In this document: piece by piece, positions 47,201 through 61,755 of the stretch | Layout of the letters: each line of letters opens with the position of its first letter | Position numbering within the stretch: the first letter of the stretch is position 1 | Assembly: GCF_024502345.1 (NCBI RefSeq) | Contig: NZ_JALDNN010000003.1 | Reading direction: 5' to 3' (one strand) | DNA length: 64,000 nucleotides | From: Escherichia coli | Lineage (GTDB): Bacteria > Pseudomonadota > Gammaproteobacteria > Enterobacterales > Enterobacteriaceae | The notes under the pieces: model-generated | The model's database searches: none | Seen by the model: the letters and a program-made list of their open reading frames with translations, nothing else | What the model was told of the DNA's origin: nothing | Program-made: the position numbers and the translations under genes

Positions 47201-47425
47201 TTAATAATCACTTTCTTCCGGTTGCGGCTGGGTGACAAACTGGTACTTCACCCCATTAGGGACGCCAACGGCTTTTGCTACAGATTCACACAGCAGCGAC
47301 AGGTCATTCAGAGTCATCGGATATTCGATATCGACGGAATATAAGGCCCCGGCGTTCTCGGCCTCTTCGATATTTTTATACTGGGCACTGAAAATGGCTA
47401 TGGTAGAGATTTCAAGGTTATGCAT
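47201..47425 (-). CDS. small hypothetical protein (74 aa), paralogue of 53302-53526
   Basis: Shares 19-residue block YPMTLNDLSLLCESVAKA(V/L) with 53302-53526 product. Confidence 0.5.
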   Translation of the reverse strand: MHNLEISTIAIFSAQYKNIEEAENAGALYSVDIEYPMTLNDLSLLCESVAKAVGVPNGVKYQFVTQPQPEESDY

Positions 47426-50960: not shown

Positions 50961-51569
50961 TCACCCGGTAATAACGATGGCCTGTTCCAATTGTGGCTGG
51001 CGATCCCCCCGCAGCGCTACCGACTCCTGGAGGCGTGCGGAAGGCATCGTCATTGCCTTAAACCCCTCATCCCGCGAACGCACCAGCATCCCCCACGAAT
51101 GGGTTTCACAGACATCGTTCTCGAAATTGGGTTCGGTCGACAGCAGTGATTCCATCTTCGGTTCGATGTGTACCGGCGCAATGTTTTTATAAACAGGGTG
51201 AACACGACACTGTTCAGACGCTTGTGCTCGGTAGCTCCCTTGCGCCAGCAGCACGTCATGGGAAACCAGGTCATAATCTGTATCTTCGACAAAAGTCTTC
51301 AGGGTGTGCGTTATTTTGCCGAATCCTTCGATATTCCAGACGGACACCATCGTAAACTCTTCAAACGCACGGGGACTTTTGACCAAAAATCCATTCAGCG
51401 CCCTACGCCCCTTCAGCATCCCCACCAGGTATTGCTTGTTGGGATAAGGGCGCATCGCAACAAGGTCATTACCAGTCAGGCGTAGCGACAGTTCCGGGAC
51501 GCTTACGGAATCCAGCGTGCAAAGATTTCCCATCGGATGCAGGATTTTTGGTACAAGGTGCAAAAACAT
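50961..51569 (-). CDS. hypothetical protein (202 aa)
   Basis: ORF in array. Confidence 0.5.
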   Translation of the reverse strand: MFLHLVPKILHPMGNLCTLDSVSVPELSLRLTGNDLVAMRPYPNKQYLVGMLKGRRALNGFLVKSPRAFEEFTMVSVWNIEGFGKITHTLKTFVEDTDYDLVSHDVLLAQGSYRAQASEQCRVHPVYKNIAPVHIEPKMESLLSTEPNFENDVCETHSWGMLVRSRDEGFKAMTMPSARLQESVALRGDRQPQLEQAIVITG

Positions 51570-51599: not shown

Positions 51600-52136
51600 T
51601 TATTGTGCCGTCGCCTGATGTATTTCGAACCAGAAGACAACCGGCTTTTCCGTGACTTCAATTAACCCAAATCGCTCTGCGGTTCTGAAGTTGACGCTGT
51701 ATGCCCTGGCGCGTTCTACCTGGCGGCTTATTTCTTTCCTCATGCCTTCAACACTTAATGCACCTTTAAAGAGATTGCAGGGGGCGCAAGCCGGAAAAAG
51801 ATTTTCGATTGCATGCAGTTCAGGGTGCATGACCTTACCGGTACTTCGAGCCCGGTGTGTCACTCGACTTCCAGCGGGGGCTCTGACCATTTCAAAATCC
51901 CGCCTCACCGGTTCAACATGATCGGCATGCCAGCCTTTTTCCGGCAAAGGACAGCCGCAGTAGGCACACCGACCGCCAAATTTCAAACGCAGTTCGGCTC
52001 GTTGCTCTTTGGATATTTTATTTTTTGGTTTTGAAAATCGCCCATCATCAGATTCAACCTTCGGGAGGAGTTCTGAAAAATTGGGTAATTCGATTACTGC
52101 GCCTTTGTTATTTAGAACTTTCACCGGACCTCCCAA
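51600..52136 (-). CDS. HNH endonuclease-domain protein (178 aa)
   Basis: CAYCGC...HADHVEP...N...ACAPCN = C-x2-C / H-x-D-H / C-x2-C HNH signature. Confidence 0.75.
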   Translation of the reverse strand: MGGPVKVLNNKGAVIELPNFSELLPKVESDDGRFSKPKNKISKEQRAELRLKFGGRCAYCGCPLPEKGWHADHVEPVRRDFEMVRAPAGSRVTHRARSTGKVMHPELHAIENLFPACAPCNLFKGALSVEGMRKEISRQVERARAYSVNFRTAERFGLIEVTEKPVVFWFEIHQATAQ

Positions 52137-52154
52137 CCATATTAAGACGATTTT

Positions 52155-52466
52155 TTATTTATTTTCCTGAATTAGTTTTCGAATTTTAATCAGGTGTGGT
52201 CGGCTTAATTTGCATAGCTGTTCGGTCGCGGCATCCAGAGTGGGAAATACATGGGCCTCATTAATATCCAGTGTCCAGTATTTCGCTTTACCTTCTCCCA
52301 GATCAGATTCAAAGTAATTCCGCTTTACCCCAATCTGCTTTGGTCTTCCATTAATTCTGACGATTTCATGCCGCTCGTCGAAGATAAAACCCTCTCCGAC
52401 CAACGTCAGGAGGACAAAAGGGCCCTCGGCCTTTTGCGTACCCAGCGAACTCATCTCATTATTCAT
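52155..52466 (-). CDS. hypothetical protein (103 aa)
   Basis: ATGA-coupled to upstream gene. Confidence 0.45.
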   Translation of the reverse strand: MNNEMSSLGTQKAEGPFVLLTLVGEGFIFDERHEIVRINGRPKQIGVKRNYFESDLGEGKAKYWTLDINEAHVFPTLDAATEQLCKLSRPHLIKIRKLIQENK

Positions 52467-53146
52467 ACGACCTCCCCGGTAATACGCTTAAAGTTGACGA
52501 CCCAGACCCACGGGTTGGCCTGCCAACTGTCCTCGCCGTACGTGTTTTTCCAGAGGCTGCGGAAGCCAAGAAAGTGCTTATCGCCAAGAACACAACATTC
52601 TGTTGGTGCGCCTTCAGCTTTGGCATCTTCCTCGCTGATGGTATTTAACCGCTCTACCCGCAAATCGGTAATTTCCAGTGCAATACGGCTGGCCCAGCGA
52701 GGCATATGGATTGAAGGTGTCCACGCACCTTCGAACTTCATATTTTCGGTACGAGGCTTCCAGTCGGCCTCATCAGGGATCGACCACAGCCCATAATCCC
52801 CCGACCGCTGTTCGCAGCTCGCCCGGTAAATGCGGGCTGCTTCAGTCCTGTCCATCACGATGTTGTCATTCCAGTCCACCGCGCACGCATCTTCATTCCC
52901 GAGCAATGAAAACGCCTCACGGACCGTAATGCGGTCGCCAACTACGCCGTACGGACAAGGCCGAAGCGCCGAGTATGGCTGGGTCCCTGTTGGAAGCCAC
53001 CAGTCATGCGTGTGCCCGCGATGTCGCGGTGTTTGCGCAGGCCTTATAGACCATTCATCCGAACTATATTGAGGCTTTATAATCCGCCGCGTCTGTGTTT
53101 TCTGATCTGCCAGAATTGCCCGGACCATTTCATCATTAAAAAGCAT
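52463..53146 (-). CDS. phage-type ASCH/PUA-like protein (tentative)
   Basis: N-terminus MLFNDEMVRAILADQKTQTRRII resembles common phage ASCH-domain proteins. Confidence 0.5.
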   Translation of the reverse strand: MLFNDEMVRAILADQKTQTRRIIKPQYSSDEWSIRPAQTPRHRGHTHDWWLPTGTQPYSALRPCPYGVVGDRITVREAFSLLGNEDACAVDWNDNIVMDRTEAARIYRASCEQRSGDYGLWSIPDEADWKPRTENMKFEGAWTPSIHMPRWASRIALEITDLRVERLNTISEEDAKAEGAPTECCVLGDKHFLGFRSLWKNTYGEDSWQANPWVWVVNFKRITGEVV

Positions 53147-53301
53147 TCCACGAGTCTTCACTGTGCTGACTCCTTTCACACATGGTTCACACATTGAGAG
53201 GCCTATCCCTCTTTATCAGCCAGGCATACCGAAACTGTCGGTAGTTTTACGGGAACGGGCAACTGCCCCCCTACCTGATAAAGTGGTGTTCTCCCCCAAA
53301 A

Positions 53302-53526
53302 TTAATCGTATTCCCCATCCACTACCGGCTCAGTCGTAATTTCATATTTCACTCCGCCGGGTACATCCAACGCTTTAGCGACGGACTCACACAGCAATGA
53401 CAAATCATTCAGGGTCATTGGGTATTCAACTTCCAGGCTGTGCAGTGCATTGGCGCTGGCAGCAGCAGCCTTGTCAGCATGACAGGCATTAAAAACGAAA
53501 ACGGTGGTTTTTTCTTGAATAGGCAT
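53302..53526 (-). CDS. small hypothetical protein (74 aa), paralogue of 47201-47425
   Basis: ...EYPMTLNDLSLLCESVAKALDVPGGVKY... Confidence 0.5.
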   Translation of the reverse strand: MPIQEKTTVFVFNACHADKAAAASANALHSLEVEYPMTLNDLSLLCESVAKALDVPGGVKYEITTEPVVDGEYD

Positions 53527-54259: not shown

Positions 54260-56689
54260 TCACGCCAGCAGGCGGACCATACGTTTCAACAGAGGCCTTA
54301 ACAACGCCGCCGTCCTCTCCCGGCATTCATCCACATGCCGGAACCCCGTCTTTTTCGAAGACTGGGGGCCGGATAACATCCGCAGCTCCCAGATGACTTC
54401 CCGTAAGGTTCCTTCGCGCTCCGGCGAAATACACCCGGCTAATGTCTCCAGAAAGCGTTTTCTTACGGCCCGGTAATACAGACGTTCTTCCGGTTGCTGT
54501 GACGAAATCCGCAGGTTACAGAGGGTCAGGACAGCGTCAAGAGTCCTTGCCTTCAGTTCGTCTCCCGTCCGGGCCAGATGTAGCTGTTGTTCTGTCTCCA
54601 GTTGCGTCGTTATCCACCCCCCCAGAGGGGTTTTGTTGTAGGTGTGCAGTGCCACACAGGCCGCAACACAACACCAGAAGCGCAGTTTCTGCCGCTGCCC
54701 CCGCAGTTTGCGGGCTACGAGCAAGCGATAATCGCTGTCGGTCAGGATCTTGAAACGGCGGCTGGCGAGCAGAGACGGCAGCGGCGTCTGGTCGTTAATG
54801 CCAAGACGTGAATAGGCCTGCCCGCGTTGAGCGAGTCGATGGTACACCGCACCTTTCCCCCGCGAAATTCGGACGGCGCCGTATCTAAGCAGGTACTGTG
54901 CCGCCGCCACAGGGGTAAACTCACCGTCAGACACACGCTGGCGTAATCCGTCATATTCATGCCAGATAATCCAGGATGCCGTGTCTTCATCGACCGTCAG
55001 CTCATCCTCTTCTTCGAATGCAACGATGTTCAGGCCTTCCCCGCTACTCATCAGACTGCGGGAAGCTCGCTCATCCTCCCGACCGTCAAAATAGGCTATT
55101 TCGGATGACGGATCGGACAGCCCGTCAAATGACGTCCCGATACGGCCTTCCGGCAACTTCATCCAGCGTGGTGCTGGCATCGGCGTGCGGGGTACTGGTT
55201 GCATAGCTGGCTCATCGTCGAGAAGATCCAGTGCCCCCCCTTCCCACACCTGGCGGTAAAGTTCAATGGCACGAAATGGGCGCGGGTTAAAGCAATGCAG
55301 TGACCAGAGAAAGTCGATATGCAGCACGTTAGCCTCCTGCACCAGTCGAAACTGCGGCTCCGACATGCGGCGGTTATGCGCGGTATCTTCGATCTCGCCT
55401 GAAAGTAACTTTTCATGCACCGCTGCGGCCCGCTGAGCCTCCACGTAATCGAGGCTGCAACAGATATGGAACAGTCTTTCGGTCAGGGACGACGAGAACA
55501 CATTGGGCTGAAGACGCACATACCCGCCCTCAAACACTTTGCGTCCGATATAATCCCGAAGGCTCCAGTCGTACTGAATTTTGGTCAGGAAACGCTGAAG
55601 GCGGTTGAGACCAGCCTGGTAGCCGTACTTCTCAGGGTCAGTGCGGAGTAAGGTTTCCATCGAGTGATCAATGCCGACGGCGCAGCATAGCGAGCATCCA
55701 TAGCGAGCGCCGCAGGCAGAAGACCGGACAGTGGATTTCTCCGGCGTCCAGATACATTCCCCGGTCGCGTCTTTGTAAAGCGTGGCGAGGCTGAAGTTGT
55801 CCGGCAAAAAGCTTGGCAGCGGAAATCGCGCCAGAGAACCACAGGCCATCAGAAATGACCAGATATCCTGTGCCCGCCACTCTTTCACCGGGTACAGTTC
55901 GCCGCCGTGCTCCGTGAGCGAGACGCTGTCCGCCTGCCCGCCCATTCTTAGGATGTTGTCTGCCCGACGGGCGCTCTCATCATCGCGGGAACCCAGCATC
56001 AGGCACACTTTGTTGCGGACAGAAGCAGGTGCATTTTTCAGATAACGGGCTTTGGCCTGGCGCAGTGGAGAACGCTTTAGATCTGTAGCGCATTGACGCG
56101 TAGAAGAATTTGTCCAGGTTGGAAGTCCACGCCCGGTCAGAATGCGTCCGACCCAGCTCTGGGTCATGGACGGGCGGGCCACAAGGACGGTCAAAGGCAG
56201 TTCTTGTTCGGCAATAAAGGCTCTGAGCTGGCTGAGAACCTGCGTGGCCTGATGATGCATCTCAGGGTTTTCAATCAGGGTGTCAGACATCTGAATGAAG
56301 TGGTGCTGGCTGACGTTCGACCCGTTTCGTACTGCACGGATCAAGGCCATAAGGAACAAGTGCAGTAGCGAGTGAGAGTCTTTCCCGCCGCTGTAGCCGA
56401 CGCACATGGTCCAGCCTTCGGTAATCGCATGATAAATGGCACTGGTTGCCGTCGTCACGCGCGAAGCGAGACTGATCGGCTCACCGGCATCAGTATAATT
56501 CAGATCCGCATCGGTCTTCAGTGTCTGCCAGACATCGCCCCATTTATCCTGCGTCAGAATGGCAGCGTTAGCCGCCTCAGAAAATTGAATTTCTGAGGGT
56601 AATTCAAGGAATGTTTCTTTCATTTCGATATACATATTATTTCCTGAATTTGGCTTTCGCTGTATTGTCGCGATATTTATTAAATCCAT
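54260..56689 (-). CDS. large PP-loop ATP-pyrophosphatase (PAPS-reductase / DndC-like) domain protein, 809 aa
   Basis: PP-loop GYSGGKDS near residue 100; Cys cluster ACGARYGCSLCCAVG; long C-terminal extension of unknown function. Confidence 0.75.
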   Translation of the reverse strand: MDLINIATIQRKPNSGNNMYIEMKETFLELPSEIQFSEAANAAILTQDKWGDVWQTLKTDADLNYTDAGEPISLASRVTTATSAIYHAITEGWTMCVGYSGGKDSHSLLHLFLMALIRAVRNGSNVSQHHFIQMSDTLIENPEMHHQATQVLSQLRAFIAEQELPLTVLVARPSMTQSWVGRILTGRGLPTWTNSSTRQCATDLKRSPLRQAKARYLKNAPASVRNKVCLMLGSRDDESARRADNILRMGGQADSVSLTEHGGELYPVKEWRAQDIWSFLMACGSLARFPLPSFLPDNFSLATLYKDATGECIWTPEKSTVRSSACGARYGCSLCCAVGIDHSMETLLRTDPEKYGYQAGLNRLQRFLTKIQYDWSLRDYIGRKVFEGGYVRLQPNVFSSSLTERLFHICCSLDYVEAQRAAAVHEKLLSGEIEDTAHNRRMSEPQFRLVQEANVLHIDFLWSLHCFNPRPFRAIELYRQVWEGGALDLLDDEPAMQPVPRTPMPAPRWMKLPEGRIGTSFDGLSDPSSEIAYFDGREDERASRSLMSSGEGLNIVAFEEEDELTVDEDTASWIIWHEYDGLRQRVSDGEFTPVAAAQYLLRYGAVRISRGKGAVYHRLAQRGQAYSRLGINDQTPLPSLLASRRFKILTDSDYRLLVARKLRGQRQKLRFWCCVAACVALHTYNKTPLGGWITTQLETEQQLHLARTGDELKARTLDAVLTLCNLRISSQQPEERLYYRAVRKRFLETLAGCISPEREGTLREVIWELRMLSGPQSSKKTGFRHVDECRERTAALLRPLLKRMVRLLA

Positions 56690-56811
56690 TTAATATCTTC
56701 AGCGCAATATGTGAAGCTAAAAATAGTTAAATTGAAATCATGCCAATTTAATTAAATAACACTGAACAAATAAAATTACGCGGCAATAAATATATTATGT
56801 TCTCCACGCTC

Positions 56812-59491: not shown

Positions 59492-60653
59492 CTACTCCCA
59501 GCGATAAGGGGTAAAATAGTCCTCGTTAACAGCAAGAAATTCGGTCAGGGAATGCATCGCCTTCGTGTCATATGCCGTCACAATAAAACGGTATCCGTCC
59601 ACCGTTTCGATGTAGCTGATCCCCCGTGGCGTGCAACTGGATTTCACAACTTCCGCCGTCATCATAAACTGCCCTTGCGGGAATTCCGGTGACAGGTAGA
59701 TAAAGCCAGTGGTGGCTGATGACGGGTTGGCATTCATCAGCACGCTGTTAAATTGCTTTCCGTGCCGCGCCGGAATCAACGCGCTCCCCGCTGTCGCCTG
59801 AGTCATCAACTGGCGGATCAGGGTTTCCTCTTTATCTGAGCTGTAGGCGCGAACATCATTTTCAGCCCCGGAGCGTGAGTAGACGCCGACATGAGCAAGA
59901 CGTCGGTACTCGTTACGCATATAGGCATGACAGGATGCACCGGCTCGCCCCTGAAGAGTGACGCCAAAGTCTTCACATAACATCAGTACCTGGCGCAGGT
60001 TTTTGTCATAGACCGTGGCAGAGAGCGCCAGGTTATAGCTGATGAATGTCAGCTCAAAAACCCGGGTATGTGCGTCACTAAGGTGTGCCTCCATGCGGAT
60101 CACTGGTTTCTCCGTCATTGGAAACGGCGTACCGGCCAAGCAGTACGAGGTAACATCGCTAAAACACTCGTCGATCACACTGGCAATGACCGTATCGGCG
60201 TCAATGACAGCCGGAGCTGGAACATAAATCTGAAACTGTCCTTCAGTGCCCGGTTGGATCAGGACGGGGTATAGACGCGGGGAATTGAGTTGTTCGCAGT
60301 CGGCATTGATCAGTTCTGTCCAACCGGGTTTTCCGGTGGGAGCATCAAGGCGAAGACCCAGGTTATCGCAGAAGTCGACGATCTGGCGGGAGTGCTCCAC
60401 CATCACTGCCCCGGAGAGTGTCAGACCGTGCGTAACCATCTGCATCTCACTCGTCCGGGTCTGGGAGTTCTGGGACCAGGGCTGTAATGAAAGCGTCGTC
60501 CGACTTAAGGAGGGAATGATGGTTTCATTCAGAGGTTCAATAAGCTGGCAATGCGCATACAGCCGGGTGGCGAGGAAGTCAAATATGAAGCTTGCCTGTT
60601 GTTTTGTGCTGGCCTGAATATAAAACATCGCATCCATGCCTGAATCCCGGGAT
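59492..60653 (-). pseudogene. 395-codon gene of unknown function split after codon 7 by IS1; first 5 codons and start of the TSD remain at 61436-61450
   Basis: Removing IS1 and one TSD copy restores ATG AAA CTT TTC GGT ATT TCA TCC CGG... (MKLFGISSRDSGMDAMFYIQ...); ORF-track start MAASPG is encoded by the IS1 terminus. Confidence 0.7.
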
Positions 60654-60717
60654 GAAATACCGGGTGATGCTGCCAACTTACTGATTTAGTGTATGATGGT
60701 GTTTTTGAGGTGCTCCA

Positions 60718-60993
60718 GTGGCTTCTGTTTCTATCAGCTGTCCCTCCTGTTCAGCTACTGACGGGGTGGTGCGTAACGGCAAAAGCACCGCCGGACATCA
60801 GCGCTATCTCTGCTCTCACTGCCGTAAAACATGGCAACTGCAGTTCACTTACACCGCTTCTCAACCCGGTACGCACCAGAAAATCATTGATATGGCCATG
60901 AATGGCGTTGGATGCCGGGCAACAGCCCGCATTATGGGCGTTGGCCTCAACACGATTTTACGTCACTTAAAAAACTCAGGCCGCAGTCGGTAA
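60718..60993 (+). CDS. insA: IS1 InsA
   Basis: Near-identical to copy 1 InsA. Confidence 0.95.
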
Positions 60994-61415
60994 CCTCGCG
61001 CATACAGCCGGGCAGTGACGTCATCGTCTGCGCGGAAATGGACGAACAGTGGGGATACGTCGGGGCTAAATCGCGCCAGCGCTGGCTGTTTTACGCGTAT
61101 GACAGGCTCCGGAAGACGGTTGTTGCGCACGTATTCGGTGAACGCACTATGGCGACGCTGGGGCGTCTTATGAGCCTGCTGTCACCCTTTGACGTGGTGA
61201 TATGGATGACGGATGGCTGGCCGCTGTATGAATCCCGCCTGAAGGGAAAGCTGCACGTAATCAGCAAGCGATATACGCAGCGAATTGAGCGGCATAACCT
61301 GAATCTGAGGCAGCACCTGGCACGGCTGGGACGGAAGTCGCTGTCGTTCTCAAAATCGGTGGAGCTGCATGACAAAGTCATCGGGCATTATCTGAACATA
61401 AAACACTATCAATAA
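60912..61415 (+). CDS. insB: IS1 InsB
   Basis: [25 protein letters not shown]... Confidence 0.95.
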
Positions 61416-61458
61416 GTTGGAGTCATTACCGAAATACCGAAAAGTTTCATTTTTTACC

Positions 61459-61755
61459 TTAATGGATGAGCGATTTATAATCATGCGCCGACAGGTGGAC
61501 GTTATGTACGCCATCGTTCCACTCAAAGAATAGCCGATATTTTGAATTAACTCGAATGGAAGAATACCGGTTTGCGGTCATTCTTAAGCGTTCGTACCGC
61601 AAACTACCAGATAACAATTCGCGTTCGTTTTTAACATTATTTAACGTTTCCAGTCTGCATGAAATCGCATTAATCAGTTCAGCAGGAATGCCTGCCGTGG
61701 ATTTTCCATTACGGAAAAACTTTTCCAATCGCCTGTCTTTAAATGAATGGATCAT
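61459..61755 (-). CDS. HigB-like toxin (plasmid-maintenance killer protein family, RelE/ParE fold)
   Basis: [38 protein letters not shown]...SIRVNSKYRLFFEWNDGVHNVHLSAHDY aligns with Rts1 HigB pattern (MIKSFKHKGLKLLFEKG...P...RL...SITVRANWRITF...DY). Confidence 0.65.
   Translation of the reverse strand: MIHSFKDRRLEKFFRNGKSTAGIPAELINAISCRLETLNNVKNERELLSGSLRYERLRMTANRYSSIRVNSKYRLFFEWNDGVHNVHLSAHDYKSLIH

What the first reader, a model, noticed from the sequence alone, without database searches (positions are those of the whole stretch)
54260..56689. 809-aa PP-loop (PAPS-reductase/DndC-like) protein with Cys cluster and long unknown C-terminal region
The protein has an SGGxDS PP-loop (GYSGGKDS) and a C-x-x-x-x-x-C-x-x-C-C cluster (ACGARYGCSLCCAVG), as in DndC-type sulfurtransferases of DNA phosphorothioation systems. 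It is much longer than DndC as I recall it and has no dndA/B/D/E-like neighbours. Large stand-alone PAPS-reductase-like proteins in mobile-element gene arrays are poorly characterised and could act in DNA or nucleotide modification, or in defence/anti-defence.
Basis: partly seen in the sequence, partly recalled or inferred. Interest (0 to 1): 0.65.

Follow-up and report, generated by a model that had tools for sequence, protein, structure and literature searches.

The report
Stand-alone DndC-like enzyme on plasmids
This gene on an IncHI1 multidrug-resistance plasmid encodes an uncharacterised relative of DndC, the enzyme that puts sulfur into the DNA backbone; it has lost DndC's usual partners and gained a new C-terminal module, so it may be a one-protein DNA-marking enzyme carried by major resistance plasmids.

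Summary
The ORF is real. It lies on the minus strand at 54260-56689; the likely start is the ATG at 56635, giving 791 aa rather than 809. The window backbone (39438-64000) is 99.8% identical to IncHI1 plasmid pHCM1.

Residues 59-465 (791-aa numbering) match the catalytic body of genuine DndC (hhalign probability 100%, E 8e-54). The SGGKDS PP-loop and five DndC cysteines are retained. The protein scores below NCBIfam's DndC cut-off (114 vs 290 bits).

DndC's own C-terminus is replaced by a ~170-190-aa module plus a fast-evolving basic helical tail. The module has no Pfam, PDB or AlphaFold DB relative outside this family. It occurs in only 372 of 1.84 billion representatives, always behind a DndC-like domain.

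No DndA/B/D/E or Ssp partner lies next to the gene or anywhere on pHCM1. IncC and Pseudomonas plasmids share only this gene.

The family is on about 2,650 plasmids, mostly conjugative, and essentially absent from phages. In E. coli, 109 of 110 copies are plasmid-borne, so a sulfate-assimilation role is refuted.

The core is under strong purifying selection, yet IS-disrupted copies exist.

Most likely function: a self-sufficient DndC-type ATP-dependent sulfurtransferase acting on DNA, with TdpC as precedent. This is untested. No functional study was found.

The parts
54260..56689 (-). Longest ORF (809 codons plus stop) encoding the DndC-like protein (UniProt Q935R1 / WP_000275146.1)
56633..56655 (-). 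Probable true start (ATG at 56635-56633) with an AGGA ribosome-binding site 7 nt upstream; gives a 791-aa protein
56636..56811 (-). AT-rich (29% GC) upstream intergenic region; no sigma-70 consensus promoter was found by the simple scan
56474..56635 (-). Acidic N-terminal leader (residues 1-54 of the 791-aa form) with a conserved DKW...DLNY motif; the first ~24 residues are low-confidence in the model
55241..56473 (-). DndC-like catalytic core (residues 55-465): PAPS-reductase / PP-loop ATP pyrophosphatase fold
56375..56392 (-). PP-loop SGGKDS (adenylation-type P-loop), invariant in the family and in DndC
56090..56092 (-). Conserved Cys (C200 in 809-aa numbering, C182 in 791-aa numbering), equivalent to the Cys of DndC's RWCT motif
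55682..55756 (-). Cys-rich segment CIWTPEKSTVRSSACGARYGCSLCC. C312, C326, C332 and C335 (809-aa numbering) are conserved with DndC (GEC...SCG.RFGCxxC), the presumed [4Fe-4S]/persulfide site. C336 is not conserved.
54740..55240 (-). Family-specific extension (residues 466-632): alpha/beta module, acidic first half, conserved LxKGK...RGQ motif. It has no relatives outside this family.
54263..54739 (-). Variable basic helical tail (residues 633-791; pI 9.9). It evolves fast (pN 0.31) and is absent from the 626-669-aa forms.

Best explanation
The gene encodes a catalytically competent DndC-type enzyme: a PP-loop ATP pyrophosphatase with a cysteine/[4Fe-4S] sulfur-handling site. It has been remodelled into a partner-less, single-polypeptide form specific to conjugative plasmids.

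Proposed mechanism, by analogy with DndC and with the single-gene TdpC pathway:
1. The PP-loop uses ATP to adenylate a backbone phosphate oxygen of DNA, most plausibly the plasmid's own DNA.
2. A persulfide sulfur, supplied by the host cysteine desulfurase IscS and held on the conserved cysteines, displaces AMP and leaves a phosphorothioate-type mark.
3. The family-specific extension and basic tail replace DndC's own C-terminus and supply the nucleic-acid binding or site choice that DndD and DndE (or a DndB-like partner in the tail-less sister lineage) otherwise provide.

The pay-off for the plasmid would be protection or establishment of its DNA in new hosts (restriction evasion).

Shown: the homology, retained catalytic motifs, fold, new C-terminal architecture, absence of partners, restriction to plasmids, and purifying selection.

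Inferred: that DNA is the substrate, that IscS is the sulfur donor, the chemistry of the product, and the biological role.
For: - Profile-profile match to genuine DndC over its whole catalytic body (probability 100%, E 8e-54, residues 59-465 against DndC 9-364 of 444).
- The best PADLOC and NCBIfam hits are DndC models.
- SGGKDS, five DndC cysteines and further invariant residues (K205, R235, E238, R242, R329, D341) are conserved down to 25% identity. 184 of 190 members keep both the SxGKDS and RxGCxxC motifs.
- Core pN is 0.085 against saturated pS of about 0.73.
- The extension is found only fused behind DndC-like domains: 87 of 87 long hits among 372 hits in 1.84e9 representatives.
- The basic region 571-675 and the basic tail are compatible with nucleic-acid binding.
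- No partner is conserved across IncHI1, IncC and Pseudomonas plasmids.
- The tail-less sister lineage is paired with a DndB-family DGQHR protein, which ties the family to DNA-sulfur-modification modules.
- Contexts are plasmid arrays with orphan DNA methyltransferases. In IncC the gene is in the same co-directional block as the validated host-defence-evasion operon.
- Precedent: tdpC alone suffices for phosphorothioation, via an adenylated DNA intermediate (An et al. 2025, as cited in PMC12914056).
- DndC's SGGKDS motif, [4Fe-4S] centre and ATP pyrophosphatase activity, and the proposed adenylation-persulfide mechanism, are described in PMC6435447.
Against: - No experiment links this family to DNA or to sulfur.
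- Dnd, Ssp and BREX type 4 phosphorothioation all need a P-loop NTPase partner. A PAPS-reductase gene without one gave no PT in a Bacteroides isolate. No such partner is on pHCM1.
- The score is well below the DndC trusted cut-off (114 vs 290 bits).
- A TnSeq study of an IncC plasmid singled out only tra, rep, par and hde genes for transfer into V. cholerae. This is indirect, because the table was not readable.
- IS903B-disrupted and split copies persist on plasmids, so the gene is dispensable.
- The position relative to oriT (leading or lagging region) could not be established.
Confidence: 0.4

Rival explanations
1. Anti-defence by interference. The protein counteracts phosphorothioate-based immunity (Dnd, Ssp, BREX type 4) in recipients. 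It could do so by plugging into or titrating host components (IscS, DndD/E) so that the plasmid acquires the host mark, or by blocking the restriction arm.
For: [quoted passage not shown] The gene sits in arrays with orphan methyltransferases and, in IncC, near the hde anti-defence operon. The tail evolves fast, as arms-race interfaces do.
Against: DndC's own C-terminal region, the likely contact region for DndD/E (an inference), is replaced by unrelated sequence. The usual hosts of IncHI and IncC plasmids mostly lack dnd or ssp (own knowledge; PT systems were found in a few percent of genomes). Strict conservation of all catalytic residues argues for catalysis rather than titration. The family is virtually absent from phages.
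Confidence: 0.15
2. A thiolation or adenylation enzyme for RNA or nucleotides. The protein would modify tRNA, rRNA, a nucleotide or a small molecule in the host, as TtcA, TtuA, NcsA, ThiI and LarE do, to reprogram translation or metabolism for the plasmid.
Against: Similarity to DndC is orders of magnitude stronger and covers the DndC-specific five-cysteine pattern. A sister lineage pairs with a DndB-family protein of DNA-modification systems. Neighbours are DNA-metabolism genes: methyltransferases, HNH nucleases, toprim.
Confidence: 0.15
3. The modification half of a plasmid-borne defence or exclusion system. The protein would mark plasmid and host DNA so that an unlinked plasmid nuclease can attack unmarked phages or rival plasmids.
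For: DndC homologs normally serve R-M-like defence. HNH endonuclease genes lie nearby in IncHI1, IncHI2 and Shewanella plasmids. One distant member sits beside a methylase, HATPase_c_3 and ATPase cluster.
Against: No restriction-type partner is conserved with the gene across plasmid families. None of the ten neighbours matches PADLOC defence models, apart from weak HNH hits.
Confidence: 0.08
4. Housekeeping or auxiliary sulfate assimilation: a CysH-like PAPS/APS reductase making sulfite.
For: Database name 'PAPS reductase family protein'; weak Pfam PF01507 match (E 3e-5); fold similarity to APS/PAPS reductases.
Against: There is no CysH equivalog hit in NCBIfam. 109 of 110 E. coli copies are plasmid-borne, in only 107 of 5,426 genomes. 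There are no cys-pathway neighbours. The DndC-specific motifs and the 325-aa extension are foreign to CysH.
Confidence: 0.01

Closest known systems
DndC (TIGR03183; sulfurtransferase of the DndABCDE phosphorothioation system)
   Same: Homologous over DndC's whole catalytic body (E 8e-54). It has the same SGGKDS PP-loop, the same five cysteines including RFGCxxC, and the same predicted fold class.
   Different: Only about 24% identity, and below the family cut-off (114 vs 290 bits). DndC's C-terminal ~80 aa are replaced by a 325-aa unrelated extension plus tail. There is no dndD, dndE, dndB or dndA next to it or on the plasmid. It is found on conjugative plasmids, not in chromosomal defence islands.
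TdpC of the TdpABC system (An et al. 2025, Nat Chem Biol; cited in PMC12914056)
   Same: A single DndC-type gene reported to suffice for phosphorothioation, via an adenylated DNA intermediate and without a DndD- or SspC-type partner. This is the functional precedent for a stand-alone enzyme.
SspD / BrxP (PAPS-reductase proteins of Ssp and BREX type 4 PT systems)
   Same: Same superfamily and presumed chemistry. BrxP shows that the PAPS-reductase domain can be fused to an extra DNA-targeting domain (DUF4007).
   Different: BrxP matches only weakly (E 2e-5) and there is no SspD hit in PADLOC. There is no DUF4007. BrxP lacks the DndC cysteine dyad that this protein keeps. BrxP and SspD need BrxC or SspC NTPases, which are absent here.
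DndB-like (DGQHR) + DndC-like two-gene modules on ~70-107 kb enterobacterial plasmids (tail-less sister lineage of this family)
   Same: Same family: 46-52% identity, with the same core and extension.
   Different: Those proteins lack the basic helical tail and are preceded by a DndB-family gene. The IncHI1 protein has the tail and there is no DndB-like gene anywhere on the plasmid.
CysH-like proteins associated with type IV-B CRISPR-Cas on plasmids
   Same: PAPS-reductase-family proteins of unknown role carried by plasmids and suspected of nucleic-acid modification.
   Different: They are linked to type IV-B cas genes. No cas genes are annotated on pHCM1 or in the other neighbourhoods examined. 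The relationship was not tested at the sequence level.

Membership tests
DndC (DNA phosphorothioation sulfurtransferase) | Adenylation-type PP-loop SGGKDS | tested here: met
   SGGKDS at 56375-56392; invariant in 82 members and aligned with genuine DndC. The feature is described in PMC6435447.
DndC (DNA phosphorothioation sulfurtransferase) | Conserved cysteines for the [4Fe-4S]/persulfide site (RWC, GEC, SCG, RFGCxxC) | tested here: met
   C200, C312, C326, C332 and C335 (809-aa numbering) align with the invariant cysteines of eight DndC sequences. Cluster binding itself was not tested.
DndC (DNA phosphorothioation sulfurtransferase) | Homology over the DndC catalytic body | tested here: met
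   hhalign probability 100%, E 8e-54, 366 aligned columns.
DndC (DNA phosphorothioation sulfurtransferase) | Score above the curated equivalog cut-off (TIGR03183, 290.4 bits; PRK06850, 536 bits) | tested here: not met
   113.9 and 128.2 bits.
DndC (DNA phosphorothioation sulfurtransferase) | DndC-type C-terminal region | tested here: not met
   Extension profile against DndC: probability 0.05%.
DndC (DNA phosphorothioation sulfurtransferase) | Operon or cluster with dndD and dndE (with or without dndB, dndA) | tested here: not met
   PADLOC, NCBIfam, PHROGs and Pfam on the neighbours found none. The whole pHCM1 annotation has none. No part of the protein resembles DndD or DndE.
DndC (DNA phosphorothioation sulfurtransferase) | ATP pyrophosphatase activity, Fe-S cluster, and PT in DNA | not testable with these tools
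   Needs biochemistry and LC-MS.
CysH / assimilatory PAPS-APS reductase | Equivalog-level match and a chromosomal sulfate-assimilation context | tested here: not met
   Only a weak PF01507 domain hit (E 3e-5). No CysH model in NCBIfam at E<=0.01. 109 of 110 E. coli copies are on plasmids.
TdpC-type single-gene phosphorothioation enzyme | DndC-like enzyme without an NTPase or nickase partner | tested here: met
   No conserved partner in any of about 12 contexts. This is compatible with the type, not proof of it.
TdpC-type single-gene phosphorothioation enzyme | Sequence or structure similarity to TdpC; linkage to tdpAB | not tested
   The TdpC sequence and paper were not available.
BrxP / SspD | PAPS-reductase domain with DUF4007 (BrxP) or linkage to SspB/SspC or BrxC | tested here: not met
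   BrxP matches only at E 2e-5 and there is no SspD hit. No DUF4007. No such neighbours.
DndB-like (DGQHR) + DndC-like plasmid module | Adjacent DGQHR/DndB-family gene | tested here: not met
   Present in the sister lineage. Absent from the window, pHCM1, and the IncHI2 and IncC loci (tblastn E<=1, HMM E<=10).

The most novel reading that the evidence does not exclude
The major multidrug-resistance plasmid families (IncHI1, IncHI2, IncA/C and relatives) carry a self-sufficient, single-polypeptide DNA sulfur-modification enzyme. It would write a phosphorothioate-type backbone mark on the plasmid, possibly on the single-stranded transfer intermediate, which would make the nickase and ATPase partners of Dnd and Ssp systems unnecessary. 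The new C-terminal module would act as the DNA-targeting device, and the mark would help the plasmid survive nucleases in new hosts.
Probability: 0.2. Interest if true: 0.85.

Novelty: new variant of a known kind. Interest (0 to 1): 0.6.

Why it matters
IncHI1, IncHI2 and IncC plasmids are leading vehicles of multidrug resistance in Salmonella Typhi, E. coli, Klebsiella and Vibrio.

This gene is a conserved backbone gene of those plasmids: about 2,650 plasmid records carry a homolog. It retains all the catalytic hallmarks of the DNA-phosphorothioation enzyme DndC, yet it has never been studied.

If it modifies DNA on its own, three things would follow:
- It would extend backbone sulfur modification from chromosomal defence systems to plasmid offence or establishment.
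- It would give a second example, after TdpC, of single-protein phosphorothioation.
- It would define a new protein module for targeting that chemistry.

The hypothesis can be tested directly with existing plasmids (R27, pHCM1, pVCR94) and standard LC-MS.

Tried and rejected
- My recollection that SXT gene s063 was this protein was wrong. s063 and Rts1 orf218 are ~270-aa proteins.
- The Rts1 deletion-study supplements contain no PAPS-reductase entry.
- The supplementary TnSeq table for IncC pVCR94 was not readable, so only an indirect statement is possible.
- I could not assign the gene to the leading region. The window holds no tra or oriT genes, because its first 39.4 kb are an accessory mosaic. 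In pHCM1 the array ends beside the relaxase operon, but the transfer polarity of MOBH oriT was not established.
- Extension or tail as a fused DndD or DndE: rejected within the sensitivity of single-sequence templates.
- Conserved neighbour across plasmid families: rejected.
- Cryptic sulfur-relay partner (TusA, rhodanese or ThiS-like) among the neighbours: none detected.
- Decoy or inactive enzyme: rejected, because the catalytic motifs are kept in 184 of 190 members.
- The TdpC comparison was impossible.
Full report
**Observation**

Window 54260-56689 holds one uninterrupted ORF on the minus strand; the plus-strand frame is full of stops. It contains GYSGGKDS and ACGARYGCSLCC exactly as reported.

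The 809-aa length counts from the first ATG. The ATG at 56635 (Met19) has an AGGA site 7 nt upstream. It is the start used by PGAP (WP_000275146.1, 791 aa) and is where all homologs begin. The protein is most likely 791 aa. Below, 809-aa numbering is used for motifs and 791-aa numbering for domains.

**Where it is**

The gene is 99.9% identical to a gene of Salmonella Typhi plasmid pHCM1 (IncHI1) and of more than 200 other plasmids. It is UniProt Q935R1.

The window's IncHI1 backbone runs from 39438 to 64000. The first 39.4 kb are an accessory mosaic with citrate, arsenic and IS elements.

The gene lies in a long one-directional array of small, mostly hypothetical genes. It has 56% GC against 49% for the backbone, and is preceded by a 29%-GC intergenic region.

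**What the protein is**

- Pfam sees only a weak PAPS_reduct domain (E 3e-5).
- The best NCBIfam and PADLOC matches are DndC models. Both NCBIfam matches are far below their curated cut-offs: TIGR03183 at 114 vs 290 bits and PRK06850 at 128 vs 536 bits.
- A profile of 82 family members aligns with eight genuine DndC proteins at probability 100%, E 8e-54. The alignment covers residues 59-465 against DndC 9-364 of 444.
- Residues shared with DndC and invariant or near-invariant in both: the SGGKDS PP-loop; C200, C312, C326, C332 and C335 (DndC's RWC, GEC, SCG and RFGCxxC); and K205, R235, E238, R242, R329, D341 and R378.
- 184 of 190 family members keep both SxGKDS and RxGCxxC. Most exceptions are truncated fragments.
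- The AF2 model is confident (pLDDT 90.3, pTM 0.80).
- No solved DndC or TdpC structure was found by sequence or profile.

**What is new in it**

Beyond the DndC-like body comes a ~170-190-aa alpha/beta module and then a ~160-aa bundle of long helices.

The module:
- has no similarity to DndC's own C-terminus (probability 0.05%);
- has no Pfam match;
- matches only members of the same family in AFDB50.

An exhaustive profile search of 1.84 billion representatives found only 372 hits. All 87 hits of 500 aa or more also carry the DndC-like N-domain.

No part of the protein resembles DndD or DndE from a real dnd cluster.

The first half of the module is acidic. Residues 571-675 and the tail are basic (tail pI 9.9; family median net charge +10).

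Comparing the IncHI1 and IncHI2 orthologs, synonymous sites are saturated (pS about 0.7-0.9). Nonsynonymous divergence is 0.085 in the core, 0.17 in the module and 0.31 in the tail. The core and module are therefore strongly constrained, and the tail evolves fast.

**Partners and context**

The ten neighbouring genes have no Dnd or Ssp match in PADLOC, NCBIfam, PHROGs or Pfam, and no sulfur-relay match. The full pHCM1 annotation has no DndA/B/D/E- or SspB/C-like gene.

Synteny is kept between IncHI1 and IncHI2. IncC and Pseudomonas plasmid pKF715A share only this gene.

Eight further contexts from distant members are all mobile-element arrays. Between them they hold orphan DNA methyltransferases, ParA, NinX, thymidylate synthase, dCMP deaminase, HNH nucleases and Rep or Tra genes, but never DndD or DndE.

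In IncC plasmids the homolog lies about 12.7 kb downstream of the hde operon and in the same co-directional block. That operon (AAA ATPase, ssb, bet, exo) was shown experimentally to provide restriction and CRISPR evasion on entry. The block also holds a dcm methyltransferase.

One sub-lineage differs. The tail-less 626-669-aa forms on ~70-107 kb enterobacterial plasmids are consistently preceded by a DndB-family DGQHR gene (TIGR03187 E 2e-47; PF14072). No DndB-like ORF exists in the window, pHCM1, or the IncHI2 and IncC loci.

**Distribution**

- tblastn finds the family on 2,651 plasmid records, of which 2,053 are typed as conjugative. These include IncHI1 (>=90% identity), IncHI2 (75%), IncC (48%), and Pseudomonas, Burkholderia and Ralstonia megaplasmids (24-31%).
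- It is practically absent from phage genomes.
- In complete E. coli genomes the IncHI1 allele occurs in 107 of 5,426 genomes, and 109 of 110 copies are on plasmids.
- IS903B-interrupted and split copies exist, so the gene is dispensable for plasmid survival.

**Literature**

Ten searches found no functional study of this protein or its IncC or IncHI2 homologs.

Relevant background:
- DndC has the SGGKDS motif, a [4Fe-4S] centre and ATP pyrophosphatase activity, and works in an IscS-DndC-DndD-DndE complex.
- Dnd, Ssp and BREX type 4 PT synthesis require a PAPS-reductase protein plus a P-loop NTPase. The tdpABC system needs only tdpC and proceeds through an adenylated DNA intermediate.
- A preprint reports that phage PAPS reductases sit in anti-defence operons and that one promotes evasion of Dnd.

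**Interpretation**

Firmly supported: this is an active-looking DndC-type enzyme that forms its own partner-less family, has a novel C-terminal module, and is restricted to conjugative elements. It is not a sulfate-assimilation gene.

Best-supported mechanism (confidence about 0.4) is ATP-dependent adenylation of a DNA backbone phosphate followed by sulfur insertion from an IscS-derived persulfide. The new module and basic tail would supply substrate binding, and the role would be plasmid DNA protection or establishment.

Rivals are interference with host PT-based immunity (0.15), RNA or small-molecule thiolation (0.15), the modification half of a plasmid defence system (0.08), and CysH-like metabolism (0.01).

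The main arguments against DNA phosphorothioation are the missing NTPase partner and the complete absence of experimental data. TdpC shows that the partner is not always needed.

**Verdict**

The finding is a new architectural variant of a known enzyme kind, uncharacterised, and sits on clinically important plasmids. Interest 0.6.

Noticed in passing
window 60662-61430 (with 59492-60676 and 61459-61755): A 769-bp IS1 copy that is absent at this site in pHCM1. It sits at the very 5' end of the 394-aa gene that follows a RelE/ParE-family toxin gene, cutting that gene off from its upstream partner. The 394-aa protein is called 'flavin reductase family' on IncHI2 but hypothetical on pHCM1, which makes an odd toxin plus large-protein pair.
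   Followed up: partly
window 47201-47425 and 53302-53526 (minus strand): Two paralogous 74-aa genes (57% identity, E 1e-22) lie within the same array, one just downstream of the DndC-like gene. IncHI2 has at least three related copies. Function unknown.
   Followed up: partly
window 52463-53194 and 52155-52466 (minus strand): A 243-aa protein matches phage family phrog_874 strongly (E 6e-77), and the next 103-aa protein matches phrog_30913 (E 6e-36). Both families have unknown function, and both genes are conserved in IncHI2.
   Followed up: no
window 51600-52136 and 50961-51569 (minus strand): An HNH endonuclease (phrog_2118 E 3e-54; weak PtuB-like PADLOC hits) is followed by a DUF6012 protein. 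The pair is conserved between IncHI1 and IncHI2 and lies about 2 kb downstream of the DndC-like gene.
   Followed up: no
window 1-39437: Accessory mosaic that is not colinear with pHCM1. Its best matches carry citrate-utilisation genes (dpiB, citF, citT), arsenic resistance genes, IS66, ISNCY, IS5 and Tn3 elements, a DNA cytosine methyltransferase and DUF1173.
   Followed up: partly
L016 5837-6922; L017 4478-5557; L019 4488-5558; L020 2914-3984: The tail-less (626-669 aa) members of the family on ~70-107 kb enterobacterial plasmids are always preceded by a DndB-family DGQHR gene, often with a 90-93-aa gene in between. This is a DndB-like + DndC-like two-gene module without DndD or DndE.
   Followed up: yes
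plasmid hits H1-H6 (e.g. NZ_CP081775.1 63139-66634); H45-H51, H68: The gene is interrupted by IS903B in six ~303.8-kb E. coli plasmids. It is split or truncated (residues 331-806 or 15-334 only) in a set of IncHI2-type plasmids, mostly from Enterobacter. The gene is therefore dispensable for plasmid maintenance.
   Followed up: partly
L014 10889-17177 (pHCM1 86.9-93.2 kb); L011 23617-31610 and L002: IncHI1 and IncC share a co-directional AAA ATPase - DUF3150 - VWA - toprim block downstream of trhN/traN. In IncC this block includes the validated hde (ssb-bet-exo) anti-defence operon and, further on, the DndC-like homolog. In IncHI1 the DndC-like gene sits in a different array.
   Followed up: partly
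window 54260-56811: The gene has 56% GC against 49% for the IncHI1 backbone, with a 29%-GC upstream intergenic region. The simple scan found no sigma-70 consensus promoter in that region.
   Followed up: no
L006 1-7943: Next to a 956-aa distant family member lies a divergently oriented cluster of a C5 DNA methylase, a HATPase_c_3 protein and an ATPase_2/AAA_22 protein. It looks like a defence system. ParA, a DprA-like gene and a PRTase gene lie on the other side.
   Followed up: no
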